NCBI GenBank assembly: GCA_964514595.1
Contig: CAZEQZ010000001.1
Span: 43,914 to 107,913 of the forward strand
DNA: 64,000 nt
DNA from: an uncultured Candidatus Saccharibacteria bacterium
GTDB lineage: Bacteria > Patescibacteriota > Dojkabacteria > SC72
Direction of reading: 5' to 3'
The notes beneath the pieces were generated by a model, which was not told where the DNA came from, searched no databases, and saw only the letters and a program-made list of their open reading frames with translations. Below are positions 2,935 to 41,673 of this stretch, piece after piece (positions within the stretch are counted from its first letter, which is position 1; the number at the start of each line of letters is the position of its first letter). Both the position numbers and the translations under genes were made by a program.

Positions 2935-4483
<1,549 letters not shown>

Positions 4484-4869: not shown

Positions 4870-8003
<3,134 letters not shown>

Positions 8004-22886: not shown

Positions 22887-25800
22887 ATGCAAGAAAAGTA
22901 CTGCCTAAAACTAGTAAAAAATATATTCATTTTTCTTGGAATACTGCTCCCAACTTTCTTTCTGTTTTTTATAGAAAAATCGTATGCACTCTCTACAAAT
23001 ACGATAAATTTGCAAGGAAAAATAGTTAGGAATGATACAGGGTATGAGGGATTGAATGTTACTACGGGTAATCCTTCGTGTGTTGTAGCTGGATCAAGTA
23101 ATGATACTTGTGATTTCAGAGTAAGATACTACAGTGCAGCTTCTGGAGGTACACTCTTTCTCACGGAAGTTTTTTCTAACAAAGAGATAGGGCAATACAA
23201 TGGTGCTTTCAATCTATCTCTTGGTTCTGATCCCTCTCCCACAGCTGGTTCATATAGTTCGCTAGATGCACTCGTAGCGGCAGAAAATACGGTATACATA
23301 GAGATAGGTTTCGATCCCGCAGGAGGTAATTCATATACAGAAACGTTCACAAGGATGTCTCTTCAAGCCACTGCATTTGCCATGAGATCAAAATATGCAT
23401 CTCATGCTAATACTGCATTTCAATTTGATACAGCAGCTAATTCCTCCGGATATGCTAGTCCTAGCGCAGGTATGGTTTACTGGGATACAACAGATTCAAC
23501 ACTTAAGGTATATGATGGTGCATCTTGGGTTGATATAGGGAGTGGAGGTACAGGGAGTTCTCTTTGGACACAGGGGACGGGCTTTGCCTATTTGACCACA
23601 TTGACAGATAGTCTGGTTCTCGGTGCTGATTCATATACTGCTATTGGTAGTGATACCTATTCGACTTATGTTGCTGGGTTGGGTGCAAGACCTCCGTTTT
23701 CTTTTGATATGGGCGCAGAAAGAGCTTCAATATCAGGAGATACTGCTAAGTCTGGTTTAACAGTATATTCCAACTACACATCAACAGGAGCTTGGCCGTT
23801 GGTTTTGTTTAAAACTGAAAGCTCTAACTTTGACAATTTGGTTCTAGAAATAGTCCAGGATGGTACAGGTCACCTTATGTCCTTAAAGAAGGGAAGTACA
23901 GAGGTATTTGCATTTGAAAACCCTATGACATTCTTCATTAGGCCCAGAGATGATGCCCCGACGATCTATGAGAATAGGTTGTACAATGTTGGAGGGACAC
24001 TCTATTGGAACGGTACGGCTTTAGGAGGAGGAAGTAGCTCTCTTTGGACAGATGATGGAACATACACATATCTAACAGATACAACAGACGATGTAATAAT
24101 TGGAGGGGATTCTGCATTGAACGCTCAATTCTATTTTGATGTTGCTAATGGAAGATTAGGTATCGGAACCGGAACTCCCACATCTAGGCTTGATATCGCG
24201 GGTGCTAGCTCCATAATCTCAAATAGCTCGGGAGACATCACAATATCTCCCGATGAGACAGTTGTCATAAAGGCACAGAATACAGATCCGAATAACTTGA
24301 TGGAGTGGCAAAATAGTTCTGGTACTGTGTTAAGTTTAATAAATCAGAGTGGATATGCAAGTCTTGGGAAGAGTACAGGTAGTACAACAGCTATGCTTTC
24401 ATTGGGTGCTAATACAGCTTCTGTGGCACAACTGAATTTAGCGGCTTCTAGTGCAATAGATGTGAGTAGTCCTAATACAGGGGATCTTTGGTATAACGGT
24501 ACCAATCTCTATTTCTATGACGGTACTGATCATATTGATCTTTTGGTAGGGAACAGTGATGGAGTTGGATTATTCTCAGAACATGGTTCAGTAGCTAGTG
24601 GTAGCTATCTTAATGTAGAGCATAACGATGATACATATAACATATTAGCAGATGGCTGGATATGTGTAGGGGGTAGTGAAAATGAGAGTTGTACAGGAGG
24701 AAATTGGAAGAATATCAAAGAAGAGAGTATTAGTATTAGGCATGCTTTAAAAGAGGATTGGGAGGATGCAGGAAGTACAGGAATCATAAGAACAGATGTT
24801 AGGGATACCTCTGTATCTCTTTCCCCAGCTTTTAATCCTGGTACAGGGGCAGATGGTGATGTAACGGTGCAGTACAATACAAATATTAATACAACAAGTC
24901 TATCTGCGGGGAGGAGTTGTGCAGATGGTGGAGATGCAGTTAATTACAATATAACTGCATTCCCATCTTCTACAACAGCTACACTTTCAGCTACACCAAG
25001 TACAGGTTGTTTGGCCGTAGGGGATGAGGTATTGATTATAAATCTCCAGGGTACATATACAGCTATGGATAATGTAGGTAACTATGAGACGTTGGAGATA
25101 GCTAATGTCTCTGGGACTACGATTACATTTAAGACAGCCAAGAAGAACTACTATGGGGATGGGTTAGCAGATGATACCAATTTAGGCACTTCTACTAGTA
25201 CGCAAAGAGTTATGTTACAGAGAGTTCCTAATTACAGAAATCTTACAGTTAATTCAGGTGTTAACTTCTATCCTTCTACATGGAATGGTGTAAAGGGAGG
25301 AGTTATATTTTTCAGAGCTAGTGTTAGTGCAAATATTAATGGAACAATAGATGTAAGTGGGATAGGGTATAGAGGAGGTAGTGCAGGTGGAAATCTTCAA
25401 GGGAGCTCAGGAGGAGAGGCATTTTGCGGACCTGGTGGTGCAGGGGCAACAACTACAACAAATGGTACTAGTGGGGCTGGTGGTGGTGGTGGGTATAATG
25501 GTTATTTGGGTGGAAATGGTTACTGTGGTGGTGGTGGTGGTGCAAGTAATGGCTCCACTTTAGGATTGGGTAGTGCTAACAGGGGGGGTTCTGGTGGTGG
25601 CTCCGAGTACGCAGCCGCCGGTAGCGGTGGAGGATATGGTACAGCTGGAAGTGGAGGAGCAAATTATACTGCTGGATCAAATGCTCCTTCTGGTGGGACT
25701 AATGCTTCTGGAGATGGAACTCTGTCGACCAGTGTTACATATAGTGGAGGAGGAGGGGGAGGAACATATGGGGAGGCTAATTTAAGTAAACTCTTTTTTG

Positions 25801-28800
25801 GGAGTGCTGGATCGGGAGGTACTGTAGGAACAGCTGGAGTTTCTGGTTCTGGTGGAATAGGAGGAGGAATAATAGCTGTTTATTCCAAGAGTGTAGTTGT
25901 TTCAGGAATGGTATCATCTAGAGGTACAGGCGGAGCTTCTGCTACAGTTGCTAATGCAGCAGGAGCAGGAGCTGGAGCTGGAGGAAGCATATTGCTTAGT
26001 GGTGAAAGTGTTAATACTGGAACTTCCTTTGTTGGTGCAAGTGGAGGAGCTGGAGGTACAAGTACTGGGTGGGTAGGAGTGAATGGTGGTGCCGGAGGTG
26101 ATGGCCGTATAGCAATATACTACTCTGACTCATATTCTGGTACCACAGCCAACCCCTCTGTTACCAACTACTACCAATCTGGATATAACTCATACGGTAT
26201 ATATAATTCTCCAGTAATAGCTACACCCAATGCTCAAACATATGACAATATTAGATGGAGTCAAGATTTAGATACATACGGTAATATCAGTATACAAACA
26301 AGAAGTGGTAATAGTACAAACCCATTAGATGCATCATGGGAAGAGTGGAGACCATTTGTGGTTAATCAAAACTACATTATGCTTGAAAGTGCCGATACCC
26401 ATACTAACTGGAGCGGTACTAACGCGACTGTCTCTGAAGGAGATGTAACTAGAAATGTGGACTATTTTGAAGATGAGGATGAAACTACTGCTACAAATGT
26501 AACTAAGGTGGTTAGTAGTACGAATGGGGGATATGTGGAGGCCGCAGTATCAAATGAAGACCTAAGTAACTATGACTACATAACTGCTTGGGTTAGGGCA
26601 TCTCAAATAGGGAATACCTTGAGATTAGGTTTTGGAGAAAGTGCTGGTACTGAACAGTATGAAGATATTACAGTAGATGCATCGGATACGTGGCAGAAGA
26701 TATATTGGGATATATCTGATATAGCTACAGGAGATAGGGATGATGTGACCGTACTAAGATTAACCAATAAGACGGGATCAAGTAATACGATATATTTAGA
26801 TAATGTTAGAGCAGAAAAATTAATAACAGATAACGATGGTAGTGATATAAGCAGTACACCCAATAACTATATGCAGTACAGAGTAGTATTTAGTACTACG
26901 AACCTTGCATACCAACCAATACTTAGGAACATAACCATATCCTATAACTCGGGATATCGCATAGTTATACATGATAATAATAACGTTAGAGTATACAACT
27001 ACAGTGGTAGTACAAAATATCTCAAACTAGATGTAGCAACATCTGGAGGTGGAGGTGGTGGAAGCGGAACTGGCTTTGTAGCAGGAGTTGCCACATCCAC
27101 AATAGCAGATGGAGAGGATGCTGTGGCGTTCACATTTAACACACCTACTTCATATACGGATCCGTCATCCAAGCTACTCTCTGTAATGAATAACAGTGTG
27201 GAGAAGATGTATCTGGATTCAAATGGAAACCTATATGTAGCAGGAAGTGTAATAGCGGGAAATGGTTTTGGTTCTGGATTGATTAATAATACAGGAGGGG
27301 CTGTGACAGAAAGAACATTAGTAACGATAGATCCTTCAACAAATGACTCCTTCATTACAACAAACATCGAAAATCAAATGGGAGCATTTGGTGTCGTAAC
27401 AGGAGTAAGTGTAAGTGGGGATATAAATAAGAATGGCGTTTGTGATGATGGAGATACATGTATGGTTGTATTTGAGGGAATTACTAATGTGAATACATAT
27501 GATGCCACTACAGCCTCTGTAGGGGACTATATATATTCATATTCTGAATATGGATATGCGAAAGCTTCATCTGAACAAGAGAATGGGTTAATAGGGATGG
27601 TTATGTCAACAGAAAACGCTGCTTCAGGATATCTTAAGATAGTCTTCTTTACACAAAATAAGAGTGCTGCTGATTTCTATCTTAATGTTGGTTTTGATAA
27701 GAATGCGTATAGGGATATGTACACACTATTGGCCAAAGATTATGAAGCTCTAAGTCTAGCGGAGAGAAGGGGACTAATAGAGAGTAATCAATCAGAAAGT
27801 ATTATGTTTGATACTTTTGTAGATGGATTAAAGATAGATAGTGAAAATTCTGATGTAGGCTTGGATATATACAATCAAAAGATGGGACTATGGGGTGGAC
27901 TATCATTAACAGATTCCACAACAGACATGGCATCTAATAGATATTTTGGTACTACTGGAGCAACATTAATAGATGCTGCATACTACTACGATAGGTCTCA
28001 GACAGGGGAGGTTGGCCAGGATTCCACAATAGGTGATTTGATTACCGATGGTATAGATCCGTATTGGTACAAGGGAGTCTCATACATAAGTGGGACTACA
28101 GCTCTATCTGCTAAATACAATGGGCTACTTTTCAATGTCACAGGTGCATACGGTACGTCCTCTGAGCATGGAAGTATAGAGATAGAGGTAGCAAGCCAGA
28201 CAGTTAGTGGTATTACAGCAAATATTTCATCTTCCGATGGTACATGTACAGCTACAGGTGCTACATTAACATTTGGAAATGAGTATTCATTCACATCTGG
28301 TAGTTGTAGTGGGAGTAGTATTAAGATCACACCTCAAAGAACAGATTATGCGGTGGGGGATAAATTTAAGATAGCAAGTTGGTATTTAGAACCAACCACA
28401 GCTAACGACAGAGGGAGTAGGAGAGATTTTCCAGAGAGATCCATCATCATACCTACTGCAACAGCAGGGGATATATATATAACCATAGTAGACTACGATA
28501 CACAGAGAGTATGGATGAAGTTTAATTCAGATACAGATGCAATAGCCACAGGTAATATCTTAATAGATAACGCAGACAAAGATATTAATAAGATATTCAT
28601 GATAAACGGAGATATGTATGTAGATTTTACTACAGTATCATCTAATGTAGATGCTATTGTAGTAGGATTTGCAAGGGATGATGCATGGGCAGTAAATGGA
28701 GCAACCTGGTACAAGTATGATACCAATATAGGGTTAAGAAATAATGGAGATGGTTATACTACAACAACAAATCCATATACATTCTCAGATGGGGATGGGA

Positions 28801-31800
28801 GTGGGGTATCATTTGTAGGTCTAGATTATGAGGTGTTTGGTAGTAGTACTATAAAAGGAATAGATAGTAATGCAGAAGATACCACAGGCATCTACTATAG
28901 CAACCCAGTAACATTCCAATACAATAGTAACAAAGCATACCTTTGGATGAATGCATATATAGATCCAGATGATACTTCAGGAGATATTTCAGTTTCCGTA
29001 TCTAACGATGGGGGTAGTACATATGTTGCAGGGAGCCTAATAAGAGCTACGGGTAGTACAGTTAAGGAGTATGAATATAGTTTCAACCTTGCTGATTCTG
29101 ATAATGAATATATAGTAAAGATAGAGCTAGAAAGAGGTAGTAGTAAGAAATCAACGGTATATGTAAATAGTTGGGGGTTAGCACAAATGGATATAAGTGG
29201 AGTAGGAGGTGGAGGATTATTTACTAATACAGAGAATGCAGTTCCCCACAAGGGTTATGTTGAAGTACTACACGGACAGAATACAAATAACATATTAGCT
29301 ACAGGTTGGGTATACAATACTAATTTAGCTAGATGGATTAAGACTAGTGAGAGTAGTATATCCGTAAGTCATGTAAAAGATTCGGATTGGTTAAAAGACC
29401 CTGATATGATACCTGCTACACCTATATGGGTAGATCCAATAACAGGAGAGCCTGGAGAGTTAGATGCAGGTACTGGGGCAGATGGTGATATAACAGTAAG
29501 TACTAATTCAGATATTAATGTAAATAAATTAATTACGAGTAGGAATGCTGCTTGTCCAGATGCTCCTAATTACAATATAACTACATTTAGTGTTGATGGA
29601 ACAGAGGCTACCATTACACCAGCTGCAGATACTGCTAATAGTTGTTTATCTCCAGGGGATGAGGTATTAATTATAAACCTTCAAGGTACATACTCTGCAA
29701 TGGTCAATGTCGGGAACTATGAGACCCTAACTATCGACTCTATAGATGTTACGGGTACAACTATTACATTCACAGAAGCTAAATCCAACTATTATGGAGG
29801 GAATATTAATGATGATAGTAACTTAGGTACTGCAACTAACACACAGAGAGTTATGATGCAAAGGGTGCCTCAATATGATGATGTTACTGTAAATGCAGGA
29901 ATAAACTTCTATCCTTCTGCATGGAATGGAATAAAGGGAGGGGTAATGTTCTTTAGGGCCACAGGCGAAGTAAATATTAATGGAACAATACATGCAGATG
30001 GGAAAGGTTATTTAGGTGCTACACAACATGGAGGATATAGTTACGCGGGTGGTGGTGGTGGTGAGGCTTTTTGTGGTGAAGGTGGTGATGGTAGTACTAC
30101 AAATGGGACGGATGGTGCCGCGGGTGGTGGTGGTGGTGCATCAGGCGGATTGGGAGGAGATGGATATTGTGGAGGAGGAGGAGGGGGAAGGGTTATTGAG
30201 GATCCGGGCCGAGGATCAGTAGGGCAAGGAGGTGCAGGTGGAGGTGGTGGTAGATATTCGGGTGGTGGTGGTGGTGGTTATGGGACTCCTGGTTCTGGCG
30301 GCCATAGAAGTTTTGATAACTACGGTGAAGACGGAGGGGCTAATACTTCGGGAGATGGTGGTGTCTCTACAGGAACTGGTGCAGGTGGAGGAGGAGGTGG
30401 TAGCTATGGTATTGAATCCTTATCAAAATTAATGCTTGGATCTGGTGGTGGGAGGGGTGGTAATCAAACATCTCCTATGCTGGGAGGTGCAGGAGGAAAT
30501 GGCGGGGGAATAGTTAATATTGCTGGTGGAACGATTAGGGTTAATGGGGCTTTAAGTAGTAATGGGGTCAATGGTGCAAATGGTGCAAGTGGAACATCAT
30601 ACTACACAGGTGGTGGTGGTGGTGGTGCGGGTGGGTCAGTGAGGGTAGAGGGGGGAGTTGTTAATATTGGGTCATCTTTGCTTGCTGCAAATGGTGGCGA
30701 TGGTGGAATCGGTAGAATATCCAATGTGGCAACTCAAAATGGAGGTGCAGGTGGTGATGGTAGAATCGCAATCTATTTTGCTACCAGTTATGTAGGCATC
30801 TCGGGAACACCTACAGTAACAAACTTCTATACAGTAGGGGAGGAAGTAGTGCAGAATCCTTCTAGTGGAAGTGATGGAGATTTAACACTTAGTACAGCTG
30901 GAACGGTAAACATAAACAGAACAAGCCCTATGGGTGTGAGATCTTGCTCAGATGGTGGTGATGCTGTTAACTATAACATTGTTGCATTTAACGTTGCTGG
31001 GAATGAAGCAACATTGAGTGTTTCTCCTAGTAGTGGATGTCTGGATTCGGGGGACGAAGTTCTGATAATCAATCTTCAGGGCTCATACTCAGCTATGAAC
31101 AATGTTGGTAATTGGGAAATATTAACAATAGATGAGGTAGTGGGTACAACAGTTACATTTACAACAACTAAAACAAAATATTACGGTAATAACTTAGATG
31201 ATGATACAAACCTAGGTACTGCAACAAATACGCAAAGAGTTATGCTACAGAGGGTACCTCAATATGAGGATGTTACTATAGGTGTCGGTGTAACACTTGA
31301 ACCAGATGCCTGGAATGGGGTAAAAGGTGGGGTTATGTTCTTCAAGGCAAGCGGTAGTGTAAGTATTAACGGAAATATAAGTGCAAGTAGTAAGGGATTC
31401 TTAGGGGGGGTTACAGAAGGTGGATATAATCATGGTGGTGGGCAGGGAGGTGATTCTTTATGTGGTCCTGGAGGTTCTCCCGGAAGAGTAGTCTCAGGAG
31501 GGGATGGTGCAGGTGGTGGTGGTGGTTATACGGCTGGTACTGGAGATGGATATTGTGGTGGTGGTGGTGGTGGTGAGCCAACAGGCGGTATAGGTAGTGT
31601 TACAAGTGGTGGTGCAGGTGGTGGTGGTGGACGAAGAGCAGGTGGTGGCGCGGGTGGTTATGGCACTGCTGGGACATCAGGAACGTATAATGCATTAACC
31701 TATGGTGCTACTGATGGGGGGACTAACAGTTCGGGTGATGGTGGTGCAGTAGCAACTGGAATTGGCCCAGGTGGTGGTGGAGGAACATATGGAGATGAAC

Positions 31801-34800
31801 AATTAACAAAACTATTCCTTGGTTCGGGAGGTGGTAGGGGAGGAAATAATGCGTCCCCTCAACTCGGAGGTGCAGGTGGTAATGGTGGTGGTATTGTGTA
31901 TATAGTTGCCGACTCTGTTACAGTGTCTGGTACTTTAGCAAGTAACGGTGCTACGGGTGGTAATGGTGCAAGTGGTACATCATACTATACAGGTGCTGGA
32001 GGAGGTGGGTCAGGCGGTGCAGTTAGGGTTGAGGGAAGAACGGTGAATATAGGTTCCTCTGCACTCACAGTTACAGGGGGAAGCAGTGGAGTTGGTAGAT
32101 TTAACAATACGGCAGTAAATAATGGTGGTACTGGTGGTAGTGGTAGAGTAGCAGTCTACTATACAGATACATACTCCGGTACATCTGGGACCCCAGCTGT
32201 CACAAACTTCTACGAACTAGATCCAAGTACGGTAGGAGATGAGGATGTAGAAGCTCCAACGGGGATAATAAGGGCTATGATTGGTTTAACTGAAATATCA
32301 TTAGAGTCTGGTATAGATGTAGGGGATGGTAGGGATGGTAATGTGACAGTTGCTTATAATACGAATATAAATAGGACAAGTTTAATAGCAGGAAGGAGTT
32401 GTGCTGATGGCGGGGATGCCGTTAACTACAATGTTCTTGCTTTTAATTCTGCTGGGACAGAGGCAACGTTAGCTAGAGCTCCAAGTTTGGGTTGTTTAAA
32501 TGCAGGAGATGAAGTTTTAGTAATAAATCTTGCAGGTACTTCGTCCGCATTTTTTAATGTTGGCAACTATGAGACATTTAGAGTTCAAAGTATAACCGGT
32601 ACCACAGTTAGGTTTACTACGGCAAAAACCAAATATTATGGTAATAATCCTAATGATGATTCAAATTTAGGGGTAGCAAATAATACACAGAGAGTCATGC
32701 TACAGAGGGTCCCAAATTACCAGAATTTAACAGTAAATAATGGAGTTACCTTCTATCCGGATGAATGGTCAGCAGAGGCCAAGGAAAATTCGGTATATAG
32801 AGAAGGAAAGGGTGGTGTAATGTTCTTTAGAGCAACAGGGAGTGTAAATATAAATGGTACTATAAGCGCTTCCGGAAAGGGGTACAGGGGTGGTGGGAGG
32901 ACTGTGCAAGGAATATATGAGGGCTTTAAGGGAGAGTCGTATACGGGAGGGTATAATTTATATACATCCTGGTCTCCTAACGGAGGAGGAGGAGGTGGTG
33001 GTGGTGATTATTCTGTGTCTTCAAATACTGAGGCTGGTGGTGCAGGAGGTTCCTATGGAACAAAGGGGCAGGATGGTGGAGCTGGGGGGACATTTGGTGA
33101 TCAAACAAAAGGTATTGCCGGGGATATATATGCTGTAGGAGAAGATCTTAGTGATAGGATATATTTTGGTTCTGGTGGTGGTGCGGGATCTAATGATAAT
33201 GACACGGCTAATGGTCCATACGGAGGTGCAGGTGGAGATGGGGGAGGTATAATTGGAGTGTTTTCTGGAAGTATTGTGGTTAGTGGGAGCGTTGCTAATA
33301 ACGGTGACAATGGTGAAGCTGGATATAGGGGTTCTGCGAGCGACAATGAAACTGGAGGAGGTGGTGGGGGGGCAGGTGGGTCCATATATCTTGCTGGTGC
33401 AGGTGTATCTGTAGGAAGTAGTTTAGTTACAGTAAATAATGGTATAGGCGGTTTGGCTGGTGAGACAGCAGCTGCCGAAGCTGGTGGTGTTGGTGGTCTC
33501 GGCCGTATAGCTATTCACTACTCTGAAACATACTCTGGTACATCTGGTAATCCAACTGTTACAAACTTCTATGAAGGAAGCTCATACTCATACGGTATGT
33601 ATCACTCCAATGAAATAGTAACAAAAGGTGCTGGATCATTCTCAGATTTAAGATGGGATTACAATAATAATGGATACGGTAGAATATCTGTTCAAACAAG
33701 AACAGGTGCCACTGCAGATTCCACAGATGGCTCATGGGAGGAGTGGAGATCCACTAGTCCAACATATGAAGCACAATCCCTAAATGATGCTGAGAACGCA
33801 TCCTCTTGGGTTGGCACTAATGTTGTAGTATCTGATGGAGATGTGACAAGGGATGTGGACTTCTTCGAAGATGAGGATGAATTTACAACCGGTAGTATAA
33901 CTAAGATGATATCCTCTACTAATGGAGGATATGCAGAATCAACAATATCCTCAACTGATCTCTCAGGATATGAATATATAACATTCTGGGTTAAAGCTTC
34001 GGTATTAGGGCAGAAACTATCCTTTAGTATGGGAGAGAGTTCAGGTGATGAGCATACTGAGGATATAGTGATAGATAGTTTGGAATGGCAGAAGGTATAT
34101 TGGGATTTAGCTGATATACCCGCTGAAAATAGAGATGCTATAACAAAACTTAGAATAACCAACCTATCCTCAGTAATTAACACCTTCTATATAGATAACG
34201 TGAGTGCAGAAGGAAGAGGTACTAGCAGTATAGATAGGATTAATTCCACACCAAATGACTATTTACAATATAGAGTGATATTTACAACCACAGATTCTAG
34301 ATATAGACCAGAGCTACAAAGCATATCCTTCACATACAATATCGGATATGAAATTGTACAGATAGATACAAATAGAGTAAGGCTATACAACTACTCAGGA
34401 TATACTCAAAAATTAAGACTAGACATAGCTACTGGGGGATTGATGATAGATTTAAGATCCAGTCTAGGTTCGAGTACTGTCAATCTAGCACCAACCATAG
34501 CTCAACAAGATTGGGACGACTACACAAACAGTCTGTGGGTGAACAAGACAGGCACAGAGGGTAACTTCATGAGATTCCAGCAGTATGGAGTGGACAAATT
34601 CGTCTTAAGTGCGGATGGTACTATGGAGATGAGGGGAGGCACCATTACATTAGGAGATACTGGATTAAAGGGGAGTATAAGATTTAATACCGGTACCAAT
34701 AAGTTAGAATTCAGTAATGATGGCTCAACATGGATACCCGTTGCTGACTCTCTCTCCGCAGTTACTCTTGCTGCAGAATACTCAGGAGCGGTACTGTCTG

Positions 34801-35240
34801 CTGATGGTAGTAATAATACCGGGACAATGATCGCAGATAGTGATGCCTCATACAATTCTATGAACTACTATCAATGGAATAGTTCCGAATCTACACTACA
34901 AGATTACGATATCAGGCTAAGATTTATGCTTCCCTCTAACTTCAGTGGTTGGGGAAGTGGTGGAGTTACATTCAATTTTGTAACAGAAGCTACTGCAACA
35001 TCTAGTAATGAATTAGATTTCTATATATTTGAGGAAAGCTCTGGAAGCGTAGATGGAAGTTCGGAGAACCAAGTTTCCTCCTCTGCAGGGATATGGACCT
35101 CAACAACAATCTTAGGCTCATCCCTCACAGAGTGTGTCTCAGCAGGAGATGTATGTATGTTCGTTATTAAAATGTCTTCTAGAAATGATAATTATGTAAG
35201 GGTAGGTGATATAGAGATAGTATATGACAGGAAACTATAA
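22887..35240 (+). CDS. giant (4117 aa) secreted/surface modular protein: four beta-helix-like modules with Gly/Cys-rich tracts and two CBM-like beta-sandwich domains
   Basis: N-terminal hydrophobic signal/anchor. Four copies of an approximately 450-aa module (GDEVLIINLQGTYSAM.NVGNYETL...NTQRVM.QRVP.Y...FYPS.WNG.KGGV.FFRA.G ... GGGI..I......V.G..S..G ... GG.GG.GRIAIYY). Two copies of an approximately 280-aa domain ending (I/F)Y(L/I)DNV. Uninterrupted ORF. Confidence 0.85.
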   Translation: MQEKYCLKLVKNIFIFLGILLPTFFLFFIEKSYALSTNTINLQGKIVRNDTGYEGLNVTTGNPSCVVAGSSNDTCDFRVRYYSAASGGTLFLTEVFSNKEIGQYNGAFNLSLGSDPSPTAGSYSSLDALVAAENTVYIEIGFDPAGGNSYTETFTRMSLQATAFAMRSKYASHANTAFQFDTAANSSGYASPSAGMVYWDTTDSTLKVYDGASWVDIGSGGTGSSLWTQGTGFAYLTTLTDSLVLGADSYTAIGSDTYSTYVAGLGARPPFSFDMGAERASISGDTAKSGLTVYSNYTSTGAWPLVLFKTESSNFDNLVLEIVQDGTGHLMSLKKGSTEVFAFENPMTFFIRPRDDAPTIYENRLYNVGGTLYWNGTALGGGSSSLWTDDGTYTYLTDTTDDVIIGGDSALNAQFYFDVANGRLGIGTGTPTSRLDIAGASSIISNSSGDITISPDETVVIKAQNTDPNNLMEWQNSSGTVLSLINQSGYASLGKSTGSTTAMLSLGANTASVAQLNLAASSAIDVSSPNTGDLWYNGTNLYFYDGTDHIDLLVGNSDGVGLFSEHGSVASGSYLNVEHNDDTYNILADGWICVGGSENESCTGGNWKNIKEESISIRHALKEDWEDAGSTGIIRTDVRDTSVSLSPAFNPGTGADGDVTVQYNTNINTTSLSAGRSCADGGDAVNYNITAFPSSTTATLSATPSTGCLAVGDEVLIINLQGTYTAMDNVGNYETLEIANVSGTTITFKTAKKNYYGDGLADDTNLGTSTSTQRVMLQRVPNYRNLTVNSGVNFYPSTWNGVKGGVIFFRASVSANINGTIDVSGIGYRGGSAGGNLQGSSGGEAFCGPGGAGATTTTNGTSGAGGGGGYNGYLGGNGYCGGGGGASNGSTLGLGSANRGGSGGGSEYAAAGSGGGYGTAGSGGANYTAGSNAPSGGTNASGDGTLSTSVTYSGGGGGGTYGEANLSKLFFGSAGSGGTVGTAGVSGSGGIGGGIIAVYSKSVVVSGMVSSRGTGGASATVANAAGAGAGAGGSILLSGESVNTGTSFVGASGGAGGTSTGWVGVNGGAGGDGRIAIYYSDSYSGTTANPSVTNYYQSGYNSYGIYNSPVIATPNAQTYDNIRWSQDLDTYGNISIQTRSGNSTNPLDASWEEWRPFVVNQNYIMLESADTHTNWSGTNATVSEGDVTRNVDYFEDEDETTATNVTKVVSSTNGGYVEAAVSNEDLSNYDYITAWVRASQIGNTLRLGFGESAGTEQYEDITVDASDTWQKIYWDISDIATGDRDDVTVLRLTNKTGSSNTIYLDNVRAEKLITDNDGSDISSTPNNYMQYRVVFSTTNLAYQPILRNITISYNSGYRIVIHDNNNVRVYNYSGSTKYLKLDVATSGGGGGGSGTGFVAGVATSTIADGEDAVAFTFNTPTSYTDPSSKLLSVMNNSVEKMYLDSNGNLYVAGSVIAGNGFGSGLINNTGGAVTERTLVTIDPSTNDSFITTNIENQMGAFGVVTGVSVSGDINKNGVCDDGDTCMVVFEGITNVNTYDATTASVGDYIYSYSEYGYAKASSEQENGLIGMVMSTENAASGYLKIVFFTQNKSAADFYLNVGFDKNAYRDMYTLLAKDYEALSLAERRGLIESNQSESIMFDTFVDGLKIDSENSDVGLDIYNQKMGLWGGLSLTDSTTDMASNRYFGTTGATLIDAAYYYDRSQTGEVGQDSTIGDLITDGIDPYWYKGVSYISGTTALSAKYNGLLFNVTGAYGTSSEHGSIEIEVASQTVSGITANISSSDGTCTATGATLTFGNEYSFTSGSCSGSSIKITPQRTDYAVGDKFKIASWYLEPTTANDRGSRRDFPERSIIIPTATAGDIYITIVDYDTQRVWMKFNSDTDAIATGNILIDNADKDINKIFMINGDMYVDFTTVSSNVDAIVVGFARDDAWAVNGATWYKYDTNIGLRNNGDGYTTTTNPYTFSDGDGSGVSFVGLDYEVFGSSTIKGIDSNAEDTTGIYYSNPVTFQYNSNKAYLWMNAYIDPDDTSGDISVSVSNDGGSTYVAGSLIRATGSTVKEYEYSFNLADSDNEYIVKIELERGSSKKSTVYVNSWGLAQMDISGVGGGGLFTNTENAVPHKGYVEVLHGQNTNNILATGWVYNTNLARWIKTSESSISVSHVKDSDWLKDPDMIPATPIWVDPITGEPGELDAGTGADGDITVSTNSDINVNKLITSRNAACPDAPNYNITTFSVDGTEATITPAADTANSCLSPGDEVLIINLQGTYSAMVNVGNYETLTIDSIDVTGTTITFTEAKSNYYGGNINDDSNLGTATNTQRVMMQRVPQYDDVTVNAGINFYPSAWNGIKGGVMFFRATGEVNINGTIHADGKGYLGATQHGGYSYAGGGGGEAFCGEGGDGSTTNGTDGAAGGGGGASGGLGGDGYCGGGGGGRVIEDPGRGSVGQGGAGGGGGRYSGGGGGGYGTPGSGGHRSFDNYGEDGGANTSGDGGVSTGTGAGGGGGGSYGIESLSKLMLGSGGGRGGNQTSPMLGGAGGNGGGIVNIAGGTIRVNGALSSNGVNGANGASGTSYYTGGGGGGAGGSVRVEGGVVNIGSSLLAANGGDGGIGRISNVATQNGGAGGDGRIAIYFATSYVGISGTPTVTNFYTVGEEVVQNPSSGSDGDLTLSTAGTVNINRTSPMGVRSCSDGGDAVNYNIVAFNVAGNEATLSVSPSSGCLDSGDEVLIINLQGSYSAMNNVGNWEILTIDEVVGTTVTFTTTKTKYYGNNLDDDTNLGTATNTQRVMLQRVPQYEDVTIGVGVTLEPDAWNGVKGGVMFFKASGSVSINGNISASSKGFLGGVTEGGYNHGGGQGGDSLCGPGGSPGRVVSGGDGAGGGGGYTAGTGDGYCGGGGGGEPTGGIGSVTSGGAGGGGGRRAGGGAGGYGTAGTSGTYNALTYGATDGGTNSSGDGGAVATGIGPGGGGGTYGDEQLTKLFLGSGGGRGGNNASPQLGGAGGNGGGIVYIVADSVTVSGTLASNGATGGNGASGTSYYTGAGGGGSGGAVRVEGRTVNIGSSALTVTGGSSGVGRFNNTAVNNGGTGGSGRVAVYYTDTYSGTSGTPAVTNFYELDPSTVGDEDVEAPTGIIRAMIGLTEISLESGIDVGDGRDGNVTVAYNTNINRTSLIAGRSCADGGDAVNYNVLAFNSAGTEATLARAPSLGCLNAGDEVLVINLAGTSSAFFNVGNYETFRVQSITGTTVRFTTAKTKYYGNNPNDDSNLGVANNTQRVMLQRVPNYQNLTVNNGVTFYPDEWSAEAKENSVYREGKGGVMFFRATGSVNINGTISASGKGYRGGGRTVQGIYEGFKGESYTGGYNLYTSWSPNGGGGGGGGDYSVSSNTEAGGAGGSYGTKGQDGGAGGTFGDQTKGIAGDIYAVGEDLSDRIYFGSGGGAGSNDNDTANGPYGGAGGDGGGIIGVFSGSIVVSGSVANNGDNGEAGYRGSASDNETGGGGGGAGGSIYLAGAGVSVGSSLVTVNNGIGGLAGETAAAEAGGVGGLGRIAIHYSETYSGTSGNPTVTNFYEGSSYSYGMYHSNEIVTKGAGSFSDLRWDYNNNGYGRISVQTRTGATADSTDGSWEEWRSTSPTYEAQSLNDAENASSWVGTNVVVSDGDVTRDVDFFEDEDEFTTGSITKMISSTNGGYAESTISSTDLSGYEYITFWVKASVLGQKLSFSMGESSGDEHTEDIVIDSLEWQKVYWDLADIPAENRDAITKLRITNLSSVINTFYIDNVSAEGRGTSSIDRINSTPNDYLQYRVIFTTTDSRYRPELQSISFTYNIGYEIVQIDTNRVRLYNYSGYTQKLRLDIATGGLMIDLRSSLGSSTVNLAPTIAQQDWDDYTNSLWVNKTGTEGNFMRFQQYGVDKFVLSADGTMEMRGGTITLGDTGLKGSIRFNTGTNKLEFSNDGSTWIPVADSLSAVTLAAEYSGAVLSADGSNNTGTMIADSDASYNSMNYYQWNSSESTLQDYDIRLRFMLPSNFSGWGSGGVTFNFVTEATATSSNELDFYIFEESSGSVDGSSENQVSSSAGIWTSTTILGSSLTECVSAGDVCMFVIKMSSRNDNYVRVGDIEIVYDRKL
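24790..26175 (+). repeat. beta-helix/Gly-rich module copy 1 (coding repeat)
   Basis: Amino-acid-level repeat, about 60-70% identity in core blocks to the copies at 29462, 30860, 32310 and 48805. Confidence 0.6.
29462..30830 (+). repeat. beta-helix/Gly-rich module copy 2
   Basis: As above. Confidence 0.6.
30860..32220 (+). repeat. beta-helix/Gly-rich module copy 3
   Basis: As above. Confidence 0.6.
32310..33575 (+). repeat. beta-helix/Gly-rich module copy 4
   Basis: As above. Confidence 0.6.
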
Positions 35241-35271: not shown

Positions 35272-38200
35272 ATGAGAAAATTTGATGTATTAAAACTTAA
35301 AAAAATATCTAAGCGAGGAAGATTAAGAGTATTAATACTTCTTCTCATTGGTATTTTGGTATCAGTATCTGCTCTGTGGTTTTCTTCCCTATCTAAGACC
35401 AAGCCAAATGATGATATATTTTTCCTAGATACCAATAGTGGGGCAATACTTGGTAACAAAAATCCAACATTTAATGTAAGCTTTGGAAAGAGGGATGAAC
35501 CTGAAAAGCAGTGGGTTAGATTTGAAGCCCAAGTTAGTTCACAAAATCCGTTCGAAGGGAAAAATGAGAATCTTTTCACAAAATTAGCAGACTTGTTCAA
35601 ACGGGAGAAAGAGTACGGCATAGAAATGAGTTTGAATGGTGTTGTACTTAGTGAAACAGAGAAACTAGATTTGGATGGAAAAGAAGAGGTAATTAAAACT
35701 GTTGCAGACATTCTTGGAACAGATGATGTTAGAACGTCTACGGAGTTGATAGAAAGTGGTAGGGTAATAGGGGAGTATAGTGAGGAAGCAGTATCAAAAA
35801 AGAGTGTATTAAACAAAAATGTTGCGGATGGGGTTGATATTGAGTATCAGATATTGGAAGGTTTGGGCTTAAAGGAAGAAATAGTGATACGAAATCTAGA
35901 TGAATATACAAAAGGTTGTGGAGAGGATTTAATGGGGTGTAAGTTGCCTCTTAATGAGTTTAATTTTGATCTCAAACTGGATGAGGGTTTAGAATTACGG
36001 AAAGGTTGGTTAACTTTGAAGGGTGGGAGTACACAGACATACTATTTCACTGATAAGGACGGTAATTATGTAGCGCATTTTCTTCCCAACTGGGCGATAG
36101 ATAGTGCTGGAGAGAAGACATATGATGTTCCTATGCAAGTAGAAGATGCAGGTGGCGGTAACTACAGGATTAAGGTTATAGTTGATATAGAGTGGTTATT
36201 TAGTCCTGGAAGAGTATATCCAATAAGGATAGATCCAAGCATAGTTCATGATACTAAGAATCAATTCGATCAGGGAATCTTTGATAGAACTAATAGTTCT
36301 GATGATCCTGCAATTACTATTACTAACGCAAACAATTTCTTGCATGAAATATATGCATTCACATCAGATGGGACATTTTCTCCACCTCTAGGAGTTACTG
36401 AAGTAAAAGTATTAGTTGTTGGGGGAGGAGGAGGTGGTGGATCATCAGGGGGTAGTGCAGCAGGAGCAGGTGGTGGTGGTGCAGGCGGTTTAGTATGGGA
36501 AGATTCATATGTATTTTCATCTTTAGAAATAGAAGAAGGAGTACCAATAACCGTGGGTAGTGGAGGAAGTGGAGGGGCTAGTGGTGATAGCAATGGACAG
36601 AATGGTGGAGATAGTACATTTGGTACATTAACAGCCATTGGAGGAGGTGGTGGTGGACACAGAACTTCGAATGGTGGTGATGGAGGTTCTGGTGGTGGTG
36701 TAGGTGGTGCTACAGTAACACCTGGGTCTGGAACTGTTGGACAGGGGCACGATGGAGGAAATGGCACTACCAGTGGAGATGGTTCTGCAGGGGGTGGTGG
36801 TGGTGCCGGAGAAGCTGGGTATGATTTTATTAGTGGAAGCTTTGGAGGAGCTGGTGGAGTTGGTATTTATTTAGGGAATATGTTAGGTGATAGTTTAGGA
36901 GATGATGGTTGGTTTGCAGGAGGAGGAGGTGGCGGTGCTACCGTGCATGCTGGTGGTACAGGAGGAAAAGGTGGTGGTGGTACTGGTGGTGTTTCGACCT
37001 CTAATGCCCAAGATGGTGTGGCAGGTACAGGTGGAGGTGGAGGTGGAGGTGGAAGAAGTGGATCCTCTGGTGGTTCTGGTGGCTCTGGTATAGTTATCAT
37101 TGCTATACCCAAAAAACACTCATATGGTCAATATATATCACCCGTTATAGATTTTGAAGACTCATACTACGTCGAACATATGTCTTTAGATATATCTGGT
37201 GTTCATACAGGTGGTGGGGAAAATATGTATAGTACAGTGGGTTTGGAGGCTCAATGGAATTTCAATGAAATATGGGGTGATGTTGCAGAAAATAATGATG
37301 GAACTTGCGGAAGCTCTTGTAATGCTAATCTTGTTAATTTCTCAAATACATTAGCACAGGATATACTGCCTATGAGTGGTTGGACATATATTAATAGGAA
37401 ATGGGGGAATGGTTCCATAATGATTGATGGAGTAGATGATTATATTAATTTAACCACACCAATATTCACTGCGGAAAATGGCTCTTTCTCTTTCTGGTTT
37501 AGAAAGGATATAGCTCCATCCTTTTTAGAGTGCTTCTTTGGTTATTTCGAGACATCAGTAGCAGACTCTTGTGTCGGTATAAACGATGAAGGGAAGATAG
37601 TTATTGAAGATCTAGCTTTTGCGAGCAATATTTCCTCCGAACAATCATATGCCGATGGAGAGTGGCATCATGTTGTTGTTAATGGTAACTATACAGGAGA
37701 TACTTTAGAGCTTTGGGTCGATGGGATTTTGATATCTACGTCTAAATGGGAACAGCCTGCCTATATGACTACTCAATTGCTTGGTGCTAGATATAATGAA
37801 AGTACTGGGACCCCGGAAAATCTCTTTAGAGGGATGATAGATACGGTTGTAAAGTACAATCGTCCTTTATTAGCTTCGGAAATACTTTCTAATTACCAAT
37901 CGGGCAATGTTGAGTTCAGATACAGAACTAGTAACGATGGTTCGACATGGGGCGTTTGGGAGGGTGGTGAGGAGGCAGATGTAGATATAACCCAGGATTA
38001 TACAAAATGGTCTGACTCAGTATCCGATACTCGTATACTGCAACTGAGTAATGATTCGAACATAAAGGTTGGGGTAAATGATAGTCTAAGAGTTGATTCA
38101 GATTATACTAAAGTTGATACAGTCAACGGCTTGGTCGGACTTTGGCATTTAGATGAAGAGTCCGGTTCTGGTGCGTATCTCCTAGATTATAGTGATAACG

Positions 38201-40182: not shown

Positions 40183-40220
40183 AATATATACTAATAGAAA
40201 TAAATCTAGTAGAATATACT

Positions 40221-40886
40221 ATGAGTGTTGCATCGGATGCCATAAAAGATAATAAAAAAGTATTACTACTAGCACTCGGGCTTCTAGTAGTCTCTGTATT
40301 TGGTTTAATTTTAACTAGAGAAGGCATGATAATTCAACCAGACAATTTAGTACAACCTCCGTCCTCTCCTAATACATATTCTCAACCAAACAATGTACTA
40401 GAGGAGGGTGTAGACTATAAGGCAGTGATCAAAACATCTGTGGGAGACATAGAGGTAGATCTGTTTGAGGGCGAAACTCCACAAACCGTGAATAGCTTTG
40501 TATTTCTTGCAGGGGAAAGATTCTTTGATCGATTAATATTTCATAGAGTAATAGAGGGATTTGTTATACAGGGAGGAGATCCTAAAGGAGATGGAACAGG
40601 AGGCCCGGGATATCAGATACCGGATGAAATTACAGAGAGAAAATATATGCCATATACTCTAGGGATGGCAAATGCAGGTCCAAATACCAATGGCTCTCAG
40701 TTTTTCATTACATCAGGCAATATCCTAGAGGATAACCTGAAAGCCTTAGATGGAGGATACACAATATTTGGAAAAGTAACGAAGGGATTTGCTGTAGTGG
40801 ATTCTATTGAAAGAGTAGAAACAGATCGAAATGACAAGCCGATAAATCCTGTAGTCATAGAGGCGGTCCAAATAATTGAGAATTAA
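40221..40886 (+). CDS. membrane-anchored cyclophilin-type peptidyl-prolyl cis-trans isomerase
   Basis: HRVIEGFVIQGGDP...GMANAGPNTNGSQFFIT...GYTIFGKV cyclophilin signatures. N-terminal TM helix. ATG at 40221 preferred over the longer ORF start at 40134, which overlaps the upstream gene. Confidence 0.85.
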   Translation: MSVASDAIKDNKKVLLLALGLLVVSVFGLILTREGMIIQPDNLVQPPSSPNTYSQPNNVLEEGVDYKAVIKTSVGDIEVDLFEGETPQTVNSFVFLAGERFFDRLIFHRVIEGFVIQGGDPKGDGTGGPGYQIPDEITERKYMPYTLGMANAGPNTNGSQFFITSGNILEDNLKALDGGYTIFGKVTKGFAVVDSIERVETDRNDKPINPVVIEAVQIIEN

Positions 40887-40921
40887 TCTATAGTTAATAT
40901 CTGTCCTGTATATTCTTCTAT

Positions 40922-41671
40922 ATGAAGAATATACAGAAGAAAACCGTCTACTATTTCCTTATGGTATCCCTAATATCTTTCCTCTTTGGGGTATTTTTTG
41001 ATCATTACATACTACAAAAGAGCTTTGATCTAGAACAGAAACCGCAGGAAGAGCTAGAGATACTTCTTCAGGAAGAAGAAGAAGGGAAGAAGAAAGACAA
41101 ACTCATTAGTAAAGAGGAGGGCTGTAGTATATATGTAGATGTAAGTGGATCGTTAAGGAATCCAGGTGTGTACTGCTTAGAAAGCAATGCCCTGATAATA
41201 GATGCTGTGAACAAAGCGGGAGGATTTAGTAAAGATGCCGCAACCAAATTTATATCAAGGAAGATAAATCTTGCACAACCATTAATAGATAATCAGAAAC
41301 TATACTTTCCATTTGAAAACGAACTAATATGCCAATTAGAGCCTCTAGTAGAGGAGAGTAAGAAGATTGAGAATATGTTCGTCACTCCTGTAACCACACT
41401 TCCCACAACAGAGCCATATTCAGATACTGATCAAAATACAACCCCTTCATCTTCAAATAGTGGTACAGATAGTACAAATGAGAATAACACACAATGTGTG
41501 AACATAAATACAGCTACTAAGGAACAGCTAGTAACTCTAAATGGGGTGGGAGAAGTTACCGCAGAAAAAATTATTCAAGGAAGACCGTATAGTAAAGTAG
41601 AAGATTTGTTGAATGTGAGTGGTATAGGAGAGGCGACACTAAACAAATTCAAAGACCAAGTCTGTATTTAG
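40922..41671 (+). CDS. comEA: competence protein ComEA (SLBB + tandem helix-hairpin-helix DNA-binding)
   Basis: SIYVDVSGSLRNPGVY (SLBB). C-terminal VNINTATKEQLVTLNGVGEVTAEKII...VSGIGEATLNKF HhH pair. Confidence 0.8.
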   Translation: MKNIQKKTVYYFLMVSLISFLFGVFFDHYILQKSFDLEQKPQEELEILLQEEEEGKKKDKLISKEEGCSIYVDVSGSLRNPGVYCLESNALIIDAVNKAGGFSKDAATKFISRKINLAQPLIDNQKLYFPFENELICQLEPLVEESKKIENMFVTPVTTLPTTEPYSDTDQNTTPSSSNSGTDSTNENNTQCVNINTATKEQLVTLNGVGEVTAEKIIQGRPYSKVEDLLNVSGIGEATLNKFKDQVCI

Positions 41672-41673
41672 AC

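What the first reader, a model, noticed from the sequence alone, without database searches (positions are those of the whole stretch)
22887..35240. 4117-aa giant modular surface protein with four repeats of a beta-helix plus Gly/Cys-rich module and two CBM-like domains
One 12.35-kb ORF (about 19% of the window) encodes an N-terminal anchor, three approximately 150-aa SLW/LWY-containing repeats (GSSLWTQGTGFAYLT..., SSSLWTDDGTYTYLTD..., TGDLWYNGTNLYFYDGT...), and then the higher-order architecture [module][CBM-like][middle][module][module][module][CBM-like][tail]. Each module has a conserved approximately 190-aa head (GDEVLIINLQGTYSAM.NVGNYETL ... NTQRVM.QRVP.Y...V...FYPS.WNG.KGGV.FFRA.G.V.ING.I...GKGY.GG). 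Each also has a glycine-rich tract carrying two conserved Cys about 40 residues apart (EAFCG.GG ... GYCGGGGGG), a beta-helix-like GGGI..I......V.G..S..G run, and a closing GG.GG.GRIAIYY...G(T/N)P.VTN(F/Y)Y. The CBM-like domains end in the (I/F)Y(L/I)DNV motif typical of sugar-binding beta-sandwiches. The same module occurs once in the dockerin-like gene at 48407, so the module is a mobile building block within this genome. Giant Gly-rich surface proteins are a hallmark of episymbiotic ultra-small bacteria, but this specific module has no family I can name.
Basis: seen in the sequence. Interest (0 to 1): 0.7.

Follow-up and report, generated by a model that had tools for sequence, protein, structure and literature searches.

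The report
Giant modular beta-helix surface fibre protein
A real 4117-residue secreted protein of a tiny-genome (CPR/Patescibacteria-type) bacterium, built from four copies of a widespread but unnamed beta-helix module plus sugar-binding-like domains, most likely a fibre that sticks the cell to its host; this is an expected kind of protein, not a surprise.

Summary
ORF 22887..35240 (+) is one uninterrupted 4117-codon gene. The identical protein occurs on 14 contigs, and a related genome carries a colinear ortholog (83% aa, dN/dS 0.12). Its four ~450-aa modules are only 57-63% identical in DNA, so this is not a collapsed-repeat artefact.

Three corrections:
- Only two N-terminal repeats are demonstrably related.
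- Module 4 lacks the Gly-tract Cys pair.
- The module does have a nameable relative, NCBIfam NF047640 (AgmC N-terminal domain), but scores far below its cutoff.

The module family is large (4526 cluster representatives at E<=1e-30), has no Pfam model, and is fused elsewhere to pilin, dockerin, EGF, Ig and lectin domains. Relatives with the same N-terminus and tail carry zero to several modules, so modules act as cassettes inserted into a conserved frame.

Most likely function: a membrane-anchored, disulfide-braced attachment fibre. Novelty: new member of a known kind. Interest is moderate to low.

The parts
22887..35240 (+). Whole gene: 4117-aa secreted or anchored modular protein, stop codon included
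   Evidence: Single ORF. The identical protein is on 14 contigs from independent assemblies. An ortholog is 83% identical, with dN/dS 0.12.
22887..22991 (+). N-terminal signal peptide or membrane anchor (aa 1-35; hydrophobic core aa 10-29; possible cleavage after SYA)
   Evidence: Only hydrophobic 19-mer window of the protein. Conserved in orthologs P0272, P0226 and P0138. Whether it is cleaved or stays as an anchor is inferred, not tested.
22992..24566 (+). N-terminal stalk region (aa 36-560). It contains two related ~150-aa repeats (aa 215-374 and 375-524) and short YWD/LYWNG/LWYNG motifs.
   Evidence: Repeat 1 against repeat 2 gives z = 8.2; a third repeat is not supported. Weak PHROG and DUF2793 hits fall at aa 160-231. 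The region is conserved at 45-83% in family members that carry no module at all.
24567..24839 (+). Pre-module segment 1 (aa 561-651)
   Evidence: Similar to aa 2108-2194, 39-43% identity. It recurs before modules in other proteins.
24840..26174 (+). Module 1 (aa 652-1096): head, Gly-rich tract and beta-helix
   Evidence: HMM 626 bits. NF047640 E 3e-9.
26175..27056 (+). CBM-like region 1 (aa 1097-1390): a jelly-roll-like insert ending in IYLDNV, apparently nested in a smaller beta-sandwich
   Evidence: About 50% identical to aa 3563-3855. The fold inference comes from the model of the second copy. The nesting is inferred from homologs in which the first ~50 aa are split from the rest by other domains.
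27057..29207 (+). Middle region (aa 1391-2107), fold unknown
   Evidence: No Pfam, NCBIfam, PDB or PHROG hit. Conserved in P0209, P0275 and P0146.
29208..29468 (+). Pre-module segment 2 (aa 2108-2194)
29469..30830 (+). Module 2 (aa 2195-2648)
   Evidence: 654 bits.
30867..32213 (+). Module 3 (aa 2661-3109); this is the copy that was modelled
   Evidence: 645 bits. AF2 pLDDT 87.7, pTM 0.91. Beta-helix matches.
32322..33572 (+). Module 4 (aa 3146-3562); has an insertion in the head and lacks the Gly-tract Cys pair
   Evidence: 512 bits. NF047640 matches profile positions 26-397 of 412.
33573..34451 (+). CBM-like region 2 (aa 3563-3855), ends in FYIDNV
   Evidence: AF2 pLDDT 60-84. CBM jelly-roll matches for the 555-aa model.
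34452..35237 (+). C-terminal tail (aa 3856-4117): an all-beta domain that is the conserved distal end of the protein family
   Evidence: pLDDT 80-92 for aa 3942-4117. It is 53-64% identical and always C-terminal in P0272, P0275, P0226, P0138, P0121 and P0124-P0126.
48800..50131 (+). Fifth copy of the module, in ORF 48407..50134, behind a dockerin/EF-hand-like N-terminal segment
   Evidence: HMM 492 bits. NF047640 E 3e-19. dockerin_GC E 6e-4, below its cutoff. EF-hand_7 E 1e-3.
35272..40182 (+). Neighbouring 1636-aa surface-protein gene, 31 nt downstream (Gly_rich_2 plus three Laminin_G_3 domains); probably co-transcribed. It is not a module carrier.
   Evidence: Pfam. Tail-fibre PHROGs. No module hit. 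The same gene pair occurs on an independent contig.

Best explanation
The gene encodes a cell-surface attachment fibre of a small-genome Patescibacteria (CPR)-type bacterium.

Proposed mechanism, with what is shown and what is inferred:
1. Export. The protein leaves the cell by Sec through its single N-terminal hydrophobic segment. It either stays tethered by that segment or is cleaved after SYA. The segment is shown; its fate is inferred.
2. Disulfide bracing. Outside the cell, twelve short-range Cys pairs form disulfides. The pairs are shown; their bonding is inferred.
3. Conserved frame. An N-terminal stalk and a C-terminal beta-sandwich tail make up a frame shared with much shorter relatives. 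This is shown.
4. Inserted cassettes. Between stalk and tail the gene has accumulated [pre-segment + ~450-aa beta-helix module + CBM-like jelly-roll] cassettes. There are four modules and two CBM-like regions, and the duplications are old. This is shown. The rigid beta-helices would lengthen the fibre and offer lateral binding faces. The jelly-rolls and the tail would bind glycans or other envelope components of a host cell. This is inferred.

The module is a remote homolog of the N-terminal domain of Myxococcus AgmC. It belongs to a very large extracellular family with no Pfam model.
For: The gene is real and under selection:
- The identical protein is on 14 contigs.
- An ortholog is 83% identical and colinear over aa 1-2396.
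- dN/dS is 0.07-0.16 in every region.

The protein is extracellular:
- It has one N-terminal hydrophobic segment, and 24 of its 25 Cys lie in 12 pairs 6-33 residues apart.
- In homologs the module is fused only to extracellular binding or display domains. These are a prepilin N-terminus (P0001, P0030, P0033), Dockerin_1, EGF, F5/8-type-C, Ig, fn3, Laminin_G_3 and DUF2341.

Fold:

Cassette behaviour: proteins with the same N region and tail exist with no module (P0138, 809 aa) or one (P0226, 1573 aa; P0272, 2251 aa), and a 3965-aa relative (P0275) carries one detected module head and a second pre-segment and CBM-like region, against four in the window protein.

Context:
- The next gene is another lectin-domain surface protein.
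- The genome is on 0.64-0.76 Mb contigs with CPR-like content.
- Giant surface proteins of CPR and other ultra-small bacteria are already proposed to be host-attachment factors (PMC8080830; bioRxiv 10.1101/2023.11.21.568195).
Against: - No binding or localisation data exist for any family member.
- The beta-helix fold is shared equally by polysaccharide depolymerases, and Foldseek's best hits are phage tailspikes.
- The CBM assignment is at fold level only. The model has moderate confidence (pLDDT 69, pTM 0.40) and no CBM sequence family is hit.
- The middle 717 aa and the stalk have no assignable fold.
- Family-wide invariant polar residues in the module head suggest a specific site whose nature is unknown. 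In module 3 these are D2692, D2723, N2729, E2744, Q2783, Q2788, R2789 and Y2793.
- The host, if there is one, is unknown.
Confidence: 0.6

Rival explanations
1. The modules are enzymes. On this view they are tailspike-like polysaccharide depolymerases or glycosidases that digest a host capsule, S-layer glycan or cell wall, with the CBM-like regions targeting the substrate. The protein would be mainly a degradative weapon or feeding device and not an adhesin.
For: - The pairing of a beta-helix with a CBM is typical of carbohydrate-active enzymes.
- The module head carries family-wide invariant D, D, E, N, Q and R residues.
- Giant proteins of predatory ultra-small bacteria have been linked to cell-wall degradation.
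Against: - The structural matches are weak: E no better than 2e-4, TM no more than 0.18, 9-18% identity.
- No Pfam, NCBIfam or PDB sequence match to any glycoside hydrolase or lyase family was found.
- The module is fused to pilins, dockerins and EGF arrays, which fits display or binding better.
- Four divergent copies in series are unusual for a catalytic domain.
Confidence: 0.17
2. It is a structural envelope component, an S-layer-like, sheath or spacer protein that builds or protects the cell's own surface, with no specific partner on another cell.
For: - It is abundant in Gly, Ser, Thr and Asn, is acidic, and has a modular all-beta architecture.
- It is N-terminally anchored.
- The length series from 809 to 4117 aa could tune envelope thickness.
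Against: - Lectin-like domains lie at the distal end and the neighbouring gene is rich in lectin domains.
- The module occurs on pilins and dockerin proteins.
- No S-layer homology (SLH) or other S-layer family was hit.
Confidence: 0.13
3. It is a surface adhesin for the cell's own movement, as the name of its only curated relative (AgmC, adventurous gliding motility) would suggest.
For: All five module copies and ten tested homologs hit only NF047640 gliding_AgmC_N, across profile positions of about 25-400 of 412. Myxococcota carry the module.
Against: - Scores are 19-69 bits per copy, against a cutoff of 275.
- No gliding machinery genes are in the window.
- The family is spread over many non-gliding phyla.
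- I found no paper describing AgmC's mechanism.
Confidence: 0.05
4. It is an assembly artefact: a chimeric or collapsed repeat ORF.
For: A repetitive gene in a metagenome-derived genome. In the related MAG the ortholog is broken at contig ends inside the tandem modules.
Against: - Module copies are only 57-63% identical in DNA, and the longest shared exact word is 14-22 nt.
- No DNA repeat in the ORF exceeds 81% identity.
- The identical 4117-aa product is on 14 contigs, including separate sequencing runs.
- An 83% ortholog is colinear.
- Purifying selection acts throughout the compared part, aa 1-1708.
Confidence: 0.02

Closest known systems
NCBIfam NF047640 gliding_AgmC_N (N-terminal domain of Myxococcus adventurous-gliding protein AgmC)
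   Same: It is the only curated sequence model hit. One module corresponds to the whole 412-position profile (positions of about 25-400). E-values run from 7e-4 to 3e-19 per copy. All tested homologs behave the same way.
   Different: Scores are 19-69 bits per copy (128 for the whole protein) against a cutoff of 275, so this is a remote homolog and not an equivalog. Here the module is internal, repeated four times, and sits in a CPR-type genome. AgmC's own mechanism is not documented in the papers I could search.
Beta-helix adhesins of two-partner and autotransporter secretion (HMW1, EtpA, HxuA, FHA TPS domains; VacA p55, Ag43, pertactin)
   Different: - Only about 30% of the module aligns.
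- There are no NPNL or NPNG TPS motifs.
- No TpsB partner or C-terminal beta-barrel was found.
- My identification of the organism as monoderm is an assumption.
- The Gly-rich tract and the head have no counterpart in these adhesins.
Tapirins of Caldicellulosiruptor (beta-helix cellulose-binding surface proteins)
   Different: There is no sequence similarity. Tapirins are single-domain proteins of about 600 aa.
Phage tailspike and capsule depolymerases, and GH110
   Same: They share the beta-helix fold and give the best Foldseek hits.
   Different: TM is 0.18 or less. No catalytic family signature is present, and there is no PHROG hit for the module.
Carbohydrate-binding modules with a beta-jelly-roll fold (CBM4, 6, 8, 11, 15, 22, 30, 35, 36)
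   Different: No sequence-family membership: Pfam gives none, with CBM_11 at E 6.7. Ligand-binding residues are not identifiable. The output does not say which sub-domain matched.
Giant surface proteins of CPR, DPANN and Omnitrophota episymbionts and predators
   Same: Proteins of several thousand residues, membrane-anchored and rich in adhesion, CBM and beta-helix domains, proposed to mediate host attachment (PMC8080830; 10.1101/2023.11.21.568195).
   Different: Those papers describe other domain sets (PKD, integrin, fibronectin, DUF11; antiparallel beta-helices; SecA-like domains). This module family is not named there.

Membership tests
NCBIfam NF047640 gliding_AgmC_N (equivalog domain) | Score at or above the curated cutoff of 275 bits | tested here: not met
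   Whole protein 127.9 bits over 5 stretches. Single modules score 36.3, 18.6, 52.8 and 50.2 bits; ORF 48407 scores 69.3 bits.
NCBIfam NF047640 gliding_AgmC_N (equivalog domain) | Significant homology over the full length of the domain profile | tested here: met
   E 3e-9, 7e-4, 3e-14, 2e-13 and 3e-19. Module 4 covers profile positions 26-397 of 412. Ten homologs from other phyla likewise hit this model as their only match to the module, with P0001 additionally matching pilin models at its N-terminus.
NCBIfam NF047640 gliding_AgmC_N (equivalog domain) | N-terminal position in an AgmC-type protein of a gliding myxobacterium | tested here: not met
   The modules are internal (aa 652-3562) and fourfold. 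The genome is of a small CPR type, with housekeeping neighbours.
Right-handed parallel beta-helix fold (pectate-lyase-like / beta-solenoid) | Confidently predicted stacked-coil beta-helix that matches solved beta-helices | tested here: met
TpsA (two-partner secretion) adhesins | TPS-domain NPNL / NPNG(I) motifs and a TpsB transporter partner | tested here: not met
   Neither motif occurs. No POTRA or ShlB-type gene is among the window ORFs scanned.
Autotransporter / chlamydial Pmp passengers | C-terminal beta-barrel translocator; enrichment of GGA[ILV] and FxxN repeats | tested here: not met
   No Pfam hit at all. GGA[ILV] occurs 3 times against 1.5 expected, and FxxN 8 times against 8.7 expected.
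CAZy-type carbohydrate-binding modules (beta-jelly-roll) | Beta-jelly-roll fold | tested here: met
CAZy-type carbohydrate-binding modules (beta-jelly-roll) | Sequence membership in a defined CBM family | tested here: not met
   Pfam gives no significant hit; CBM_11 is at E 6.7. The PDB profile search gives none.
CAZy-type carbohydrate-binding modules (beta-jelly-roll) | Demonstrated or predictable carbohydrate-binding site | not testable with these tools
   This needs model coordinates with ligand-site analysis, or glycan-array experiments.
Pfam PF21722 Gly_rich_2 | Match to the Pfam model | tested here: not met
   No hit in the giant or its pieces. The domain is present in the neighbouring gene 35272..40182 and beside the module in P0039.
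Giant host-attachment proteins of ultra-small episymbiotic bacteria (a functional class, not a sequence family) | Very large, exported or anchored, adhesion or lectin-type domains, in a reduced genome | tested here: met
   4117 aa, N-terminal anchor and Cys pairs. Beta-helix and CBM-like folds. Contigs of 0.64-0.76 Mb. Actual host attachment was not tested.

The most novel reading that the evidence does not exclude
The ~450-aa module (head, Gly-rich tract and beta-helix) may define a large superfamily that Pfam does not model. The representative search gave 4526 cluster representatives at E<=1e-30 and 11545 at E<=1e-10. On this reading it is a portable cassette that is inserted, in variable number, into a conserved stalk-plus-tail frame to set the reach and specificity of CPR host-attachment fibres. 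Its invariant polar cluster in the head would be a new ligand-binding or catalytic site shared with Myxococcus AgmC. That would link episymbiont attachment and gliding adhesion through one ancient domain.
Probability: 0.2. Interest if true: 0.55.

Novelty: new member of a known kind. Interest (0 to 1): 0.35.

Why it matters
How ultra-small CPR bacteria recognise and hold on to their hosts is largely unknown, and their large surface proteins are usually left as 'hypothetical'. This work gives three concrete handles:
- A confidently folded module that can be expressed on its own.
- A natural length series, from 809 aa with no module to 4117 aa with four, that could be correlated with host or habitat.
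- A family with thousands of members that merits a curated domain model.

It does not overturn any expectation. A giant beta-helix and lectin-like adhesin in such a genome is what specialists would predict.

Tried and rejected
- Pfam on the whole protein and on nine pieces gave no significant hit.
- PDB sequence searches gave nothing. I tried the module profile, the C-terminal profile, the N-terminal 650 aa and the middle 800 aa.
- PHROGs gave nothing for the module, middle region or tail. Only weak unknown-function families hit aa 160-231.
- Literature on AgmC gave no relevant paper in the library.
- The AlphaFold-database fold search (afdb50) was not available, so annotated structural relatives outside the PDB could not be checked.
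- A BLASTP self-hit of the intact protein hides internal repeats. Tiling solved this.
- Recent duplication or gene conversion between modules is rejected. DNA identity is 57-63%, and the same codon is used at only 40-46% of identical residues between the four modules (36-51% when the ORF 48407 copy is included).
- A diversity-generating retroelement targeting the tail is not supported within this window: there is no template/variable repeat pair. No reverse-transcriptase family appeared among the ORFs scanned, but not all ORFs were scanned.
- TPS, Pmp and LPxTG motifs are absent or not enriched.
Full report
OBSERVATION

Window 22887..35240 (+) is one ORF of 4117 codons with an ATG start and no internal stop.

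Tiling the protein and comparing the tiles, aligning the candidate copies (A1) and searching all window ORFs with a module HMM all gave the same picture.
- There are four modules, at aa 652-1096, 2195-2648, 2661-3109 and 3146-3562 (512-654 bits each).
- A fifth copy lies in ORF 48407..50134 at aa 132-575 (492 bits).
- No other window ORF carries the module.
- Two CBM-like regions (aa 1097-1390 and 3563-3855) are about 50% identical. They end in IYLDNV and FYIDNV.

Two details are not.
- Only two N-terminal repeats (aa 215-374 and 375-524) are demonstrably related, with z = 8.2 against shuffles. The proposed third is not (z about 1). Its LWYNG...YDGT motif resembles the short motifs that close the earlier units.
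- The Gly-tract Cys pair is in modules 1-3 only, 31-33 residues apart. The pair conserved in every copy, and in the consensus of the 124-sequence alignment, is the head pair RSC...GCL.

IS THE GENE REAL?

- Module copies share 52-62% of residues and 57-63% of bases. Their longest common exact word is 14-22 nt. At identical residues the same codon is used only 40-46% of the time between the four modules (36-51% when the ORF 48407 copy is included).
- No DNA repeat in the ORF or the window exceeds about 81% identity. The duplications are old, and a collapsed-repeat assembly is implausible.
- The exact 4117-aa product is on 14 contigs, including separate sequencing runs, with the same downstream gene.
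- A related MAG (JALHDC01) carries an ortholog that is colinear over aa 1-1708 at 83% identity. It continues to aa 2396, where its contig ends.
- Between the two orthologs dN/dS is 0.12 overall and 0.07-0.16 in each region, Gly-rich part included.

WHAT THE PARTS ARE

Sequence libraries:
- Pfam finds nothing in the protein or in nine pieces.
- PDB sequence searches find nothing.
- NCBIfam gives one family, NF047640 gliding_AgmC_N. It is hit by all five copies at E 7e-4 to 3e-19, over positions of about 25-400 of 412. Scores are only 19-69 bits against a cutoff of 275.
- Ten homologs from other phyla also hit NF047640 below its cutoff; it was the only match in nine, and P0001 additionally matched pilin families.
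- The module is therefore a remote homolog of the AgmC N-terminal domain, and not a member of that equivalog.

Module fold:
- AlphaFold2 on module 3 with 124 aligned sequences gives pLDDT 87.7 and pTM 0.91. The head (about 190 residues) and the C-terminal helix are above 90. The segment with the Cys pair scores 51-66 in places.
- Foldseek gives only weak partial hits, with best E 2e-4 and TM 0.18 or less, to tailspikes, GH110 and capsule depolymerases.
- The beta-helix claim therefore holds, but the module as a whole has no solved counterpart.

C-terminal 555 aa:
- A model of aa 3563-4117 built from 26 sequences has pLDDT 69. The tail scores 80-92.
- The output does not say whether the CBM-like region, the tail, or both gave the match.

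EXTRACELLULAR LOCATION

- The only hydrophobic segment is aa 10-29.
- Twenty-four of the 25 Cys form twelve pairs 6-33 residues apart.
- There is no LPxTG motif.

THE FAMILY

- A word-indexed search with the five copies found 223 proteins at E <= 1e-5. Named sources include Patescibacteria, Dojkabacteria, Myxococcota, Planctomycetes, Spirochaetia, Kiritimatiellia, Chloroflexota and Elusimicrobiota.
- An exhaustive profile search of 1.84 billion cluster representatives found 20750 at E <= 1e-3, 11545 at E <= 1e-10 and 4526 at E <= 1e-30. Many are proteins of 3000-7700 aa with 2-8 module stretches.
- A scan of species-representative genomes confirmed 116 loci. Most are in Patescibacteria lineages (Microgenomates, Woesebacteria, Collierbacteria, Dojkabacteria, WWE3 and others). 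Some are in TM6, Polyangiaceae/Myxococcales, Bdellovibrionales and Chloroflexi.
- Partner domains are all extracellular binding or display types: a prepilin N-terminus, Dockerin_1, EGF arrays, F5/8-type-C, Ig, fn3, Laminin_G_3, DUF2341 and the MopE motif.

A CONSERVED FRAME WITH INSERTED CASSETTES

Proteins sharing this gene's N-terminal region and C-terminal tail form a length series.

| Protein | Length (aa) | Architecture |
|---|---|---|
| P0138 | 809 | N + tail, no module |
| P0132, P0135, P0137 | about 860-890 | N + tail |
| P0226 | 1573 | N-pre-MOD-CBM-tail |
| P0272 | 2251 | N-pre-MOD-CBM-midA-tail |
| P0275 | 3965 | N-pre-MOD, split CBM, midA, midB, a second pre segment, CBM, tail |
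| window protein | 4117 | four modules |

- In P0128, P0129 and P0275 the first ~50 residues of the CBM-like region are separated from the rest by other domains. The jelly-roll is therefore probably nested in a smaller sandwich.

CONTEXT

- The upstream gene is LeuRS.
- A 1636-aa Gly_rich_2 + 3x Laminin_G_3 protein follows 31 nt downstream. After it come a cyclophilin, ComEA and ComEC.
- The rest of the window is housekeeping, plus an rRNA operon and a RuBisCO-like gene.
- Contigs carrying these genes are 0.64-0.76 Mb.
- The sources annotate the protein as 'hypothetical protein'.

INTERPRETATION

The best-supported reading is an N-terminally anchored, disulfide-braced attachment fibre. In it, beta-helix modules act as rigid, possibly binding, extension cassettes. 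The lectin-like jelly-rolls and the conserved tail engage envelope glycans of another cell. This matches what has been proposed for giant surface proteins of CPR and other ultra-small bacteria (PMC8080830; 10.1101/2023.11.21.568195).

Shown:
- the gene is real
- purifying selection in every region of the compared part (aa 1-1708)
- the module fold
- extracellular hallmarks
- the cassette series

Inferred:
- binding
- the ligand
- anchoring versus cleavage of the N-terminus
- the existence of a host

The main rival is a tailspike-like depolymerase function of the modules. It cannot be excluded, because beta-helix enzymes are among the structural matches and the head carries invariant polar residues. 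Against it, no enzyme family signature was found.

NOVELTY

This is a new, well-resolved member of a known kind, the giant modular adhesin-like proteins of reduced-genome bacteria. The module family is large, lacks a Pfam model, and is only remotely tied to a named family (AgmC_N). That is an annotation gap worth filling and not a conceptual surprise.

Noticed in passing
window 35272-40182 (+): A second large surface-protein gene (1636 aa) lies 31 nt after the giant's stop. It has Pfam Gly_rich_2 plus three Laminin_G_3 domains, and its Gly-rich part hits phage tail-fibre and tail-fibre-assembly PHROGs (phrog_863, phrog_454). It does not contain the module.
   Followed up: partly
window 40134-44152 (+): Directly downstream lie four genes: a cyclophilin-type PPIase with a ~97-aa N-terminal extension, ComEA (SLBB + HHH), ComEC (Competence + DUF4131) and a metallo-beta-lactamase-fold protein. 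This is a DNA-uptake cluster next to the surface-protein pair.
   Followed up: no
window 4869-8005 (+): The 23S rRNA match spans 3137 nt against a 2925-position model, so the gene may carry about 200 nt of insertion. The rRNA operon (16S at 2936-4483, two tRNAs in the spacer, 5S at 8131-8246) is otherwise complete.
   Followed up: no
window 48407-48799 (+): The N-terminal 131 aa of ORF 48407 carry a signal-like start and two DxNxDxxI-type loops. These give sub-threshold hits to dockerin_GC (E 6e-4) and EF-hand_7 (E 1e-3). A homolog (P0080) has a bona fide Dockerin_1 domain next to the module. No cohesin partner was looked for.
   Followed up: partly
P0001 (939 aa, Candidatus Dojkabacteria), P0030, P0033: In other CPR lineages one or two copies of the module sit directly behind a prepilin-type N-terminal methylation motif. 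The module would then be displayed on a type IV pilin-like protein.
   Followed up: partly
L003, L028, L009, L024 (JALHDC01 contigs): In the closest related MAG the orthologous giant gene is split over at least four contigs, with breaks inside the tandem modules. Such genes are likely to be under-counted or truncated in short-read MAGs.
   Followed up: partly
window 51621-53006 (+): A RuBisCO large-subunit-like gene (461 aa) sits in a genome with contigs of 0.64-0.76 Mb. From my own knowledge, this is typical of the form II/III-like enzymes reported in CPR bacteria.
   Followed up: no
window 57861-59393 (-): A 510-aa protein with a PEGA domain, another putative envelope or surface protein.
   Followed up: no
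giant protein aa 1097-1160 plus 1320-1350, and aa 3563-3625 plus 3785-3815: The CBM-like insert is flanked by two conserved half-segments (YDNIRW...ISIQTRSG...WEEWRP and YMQYRVVFSTT...P.L.NITISY). These look like one small beta-sandwich split by the insert. In P0128 and P0129 a Laminin_G_3 domain occupies the same insertion point.
   Followed up: partly
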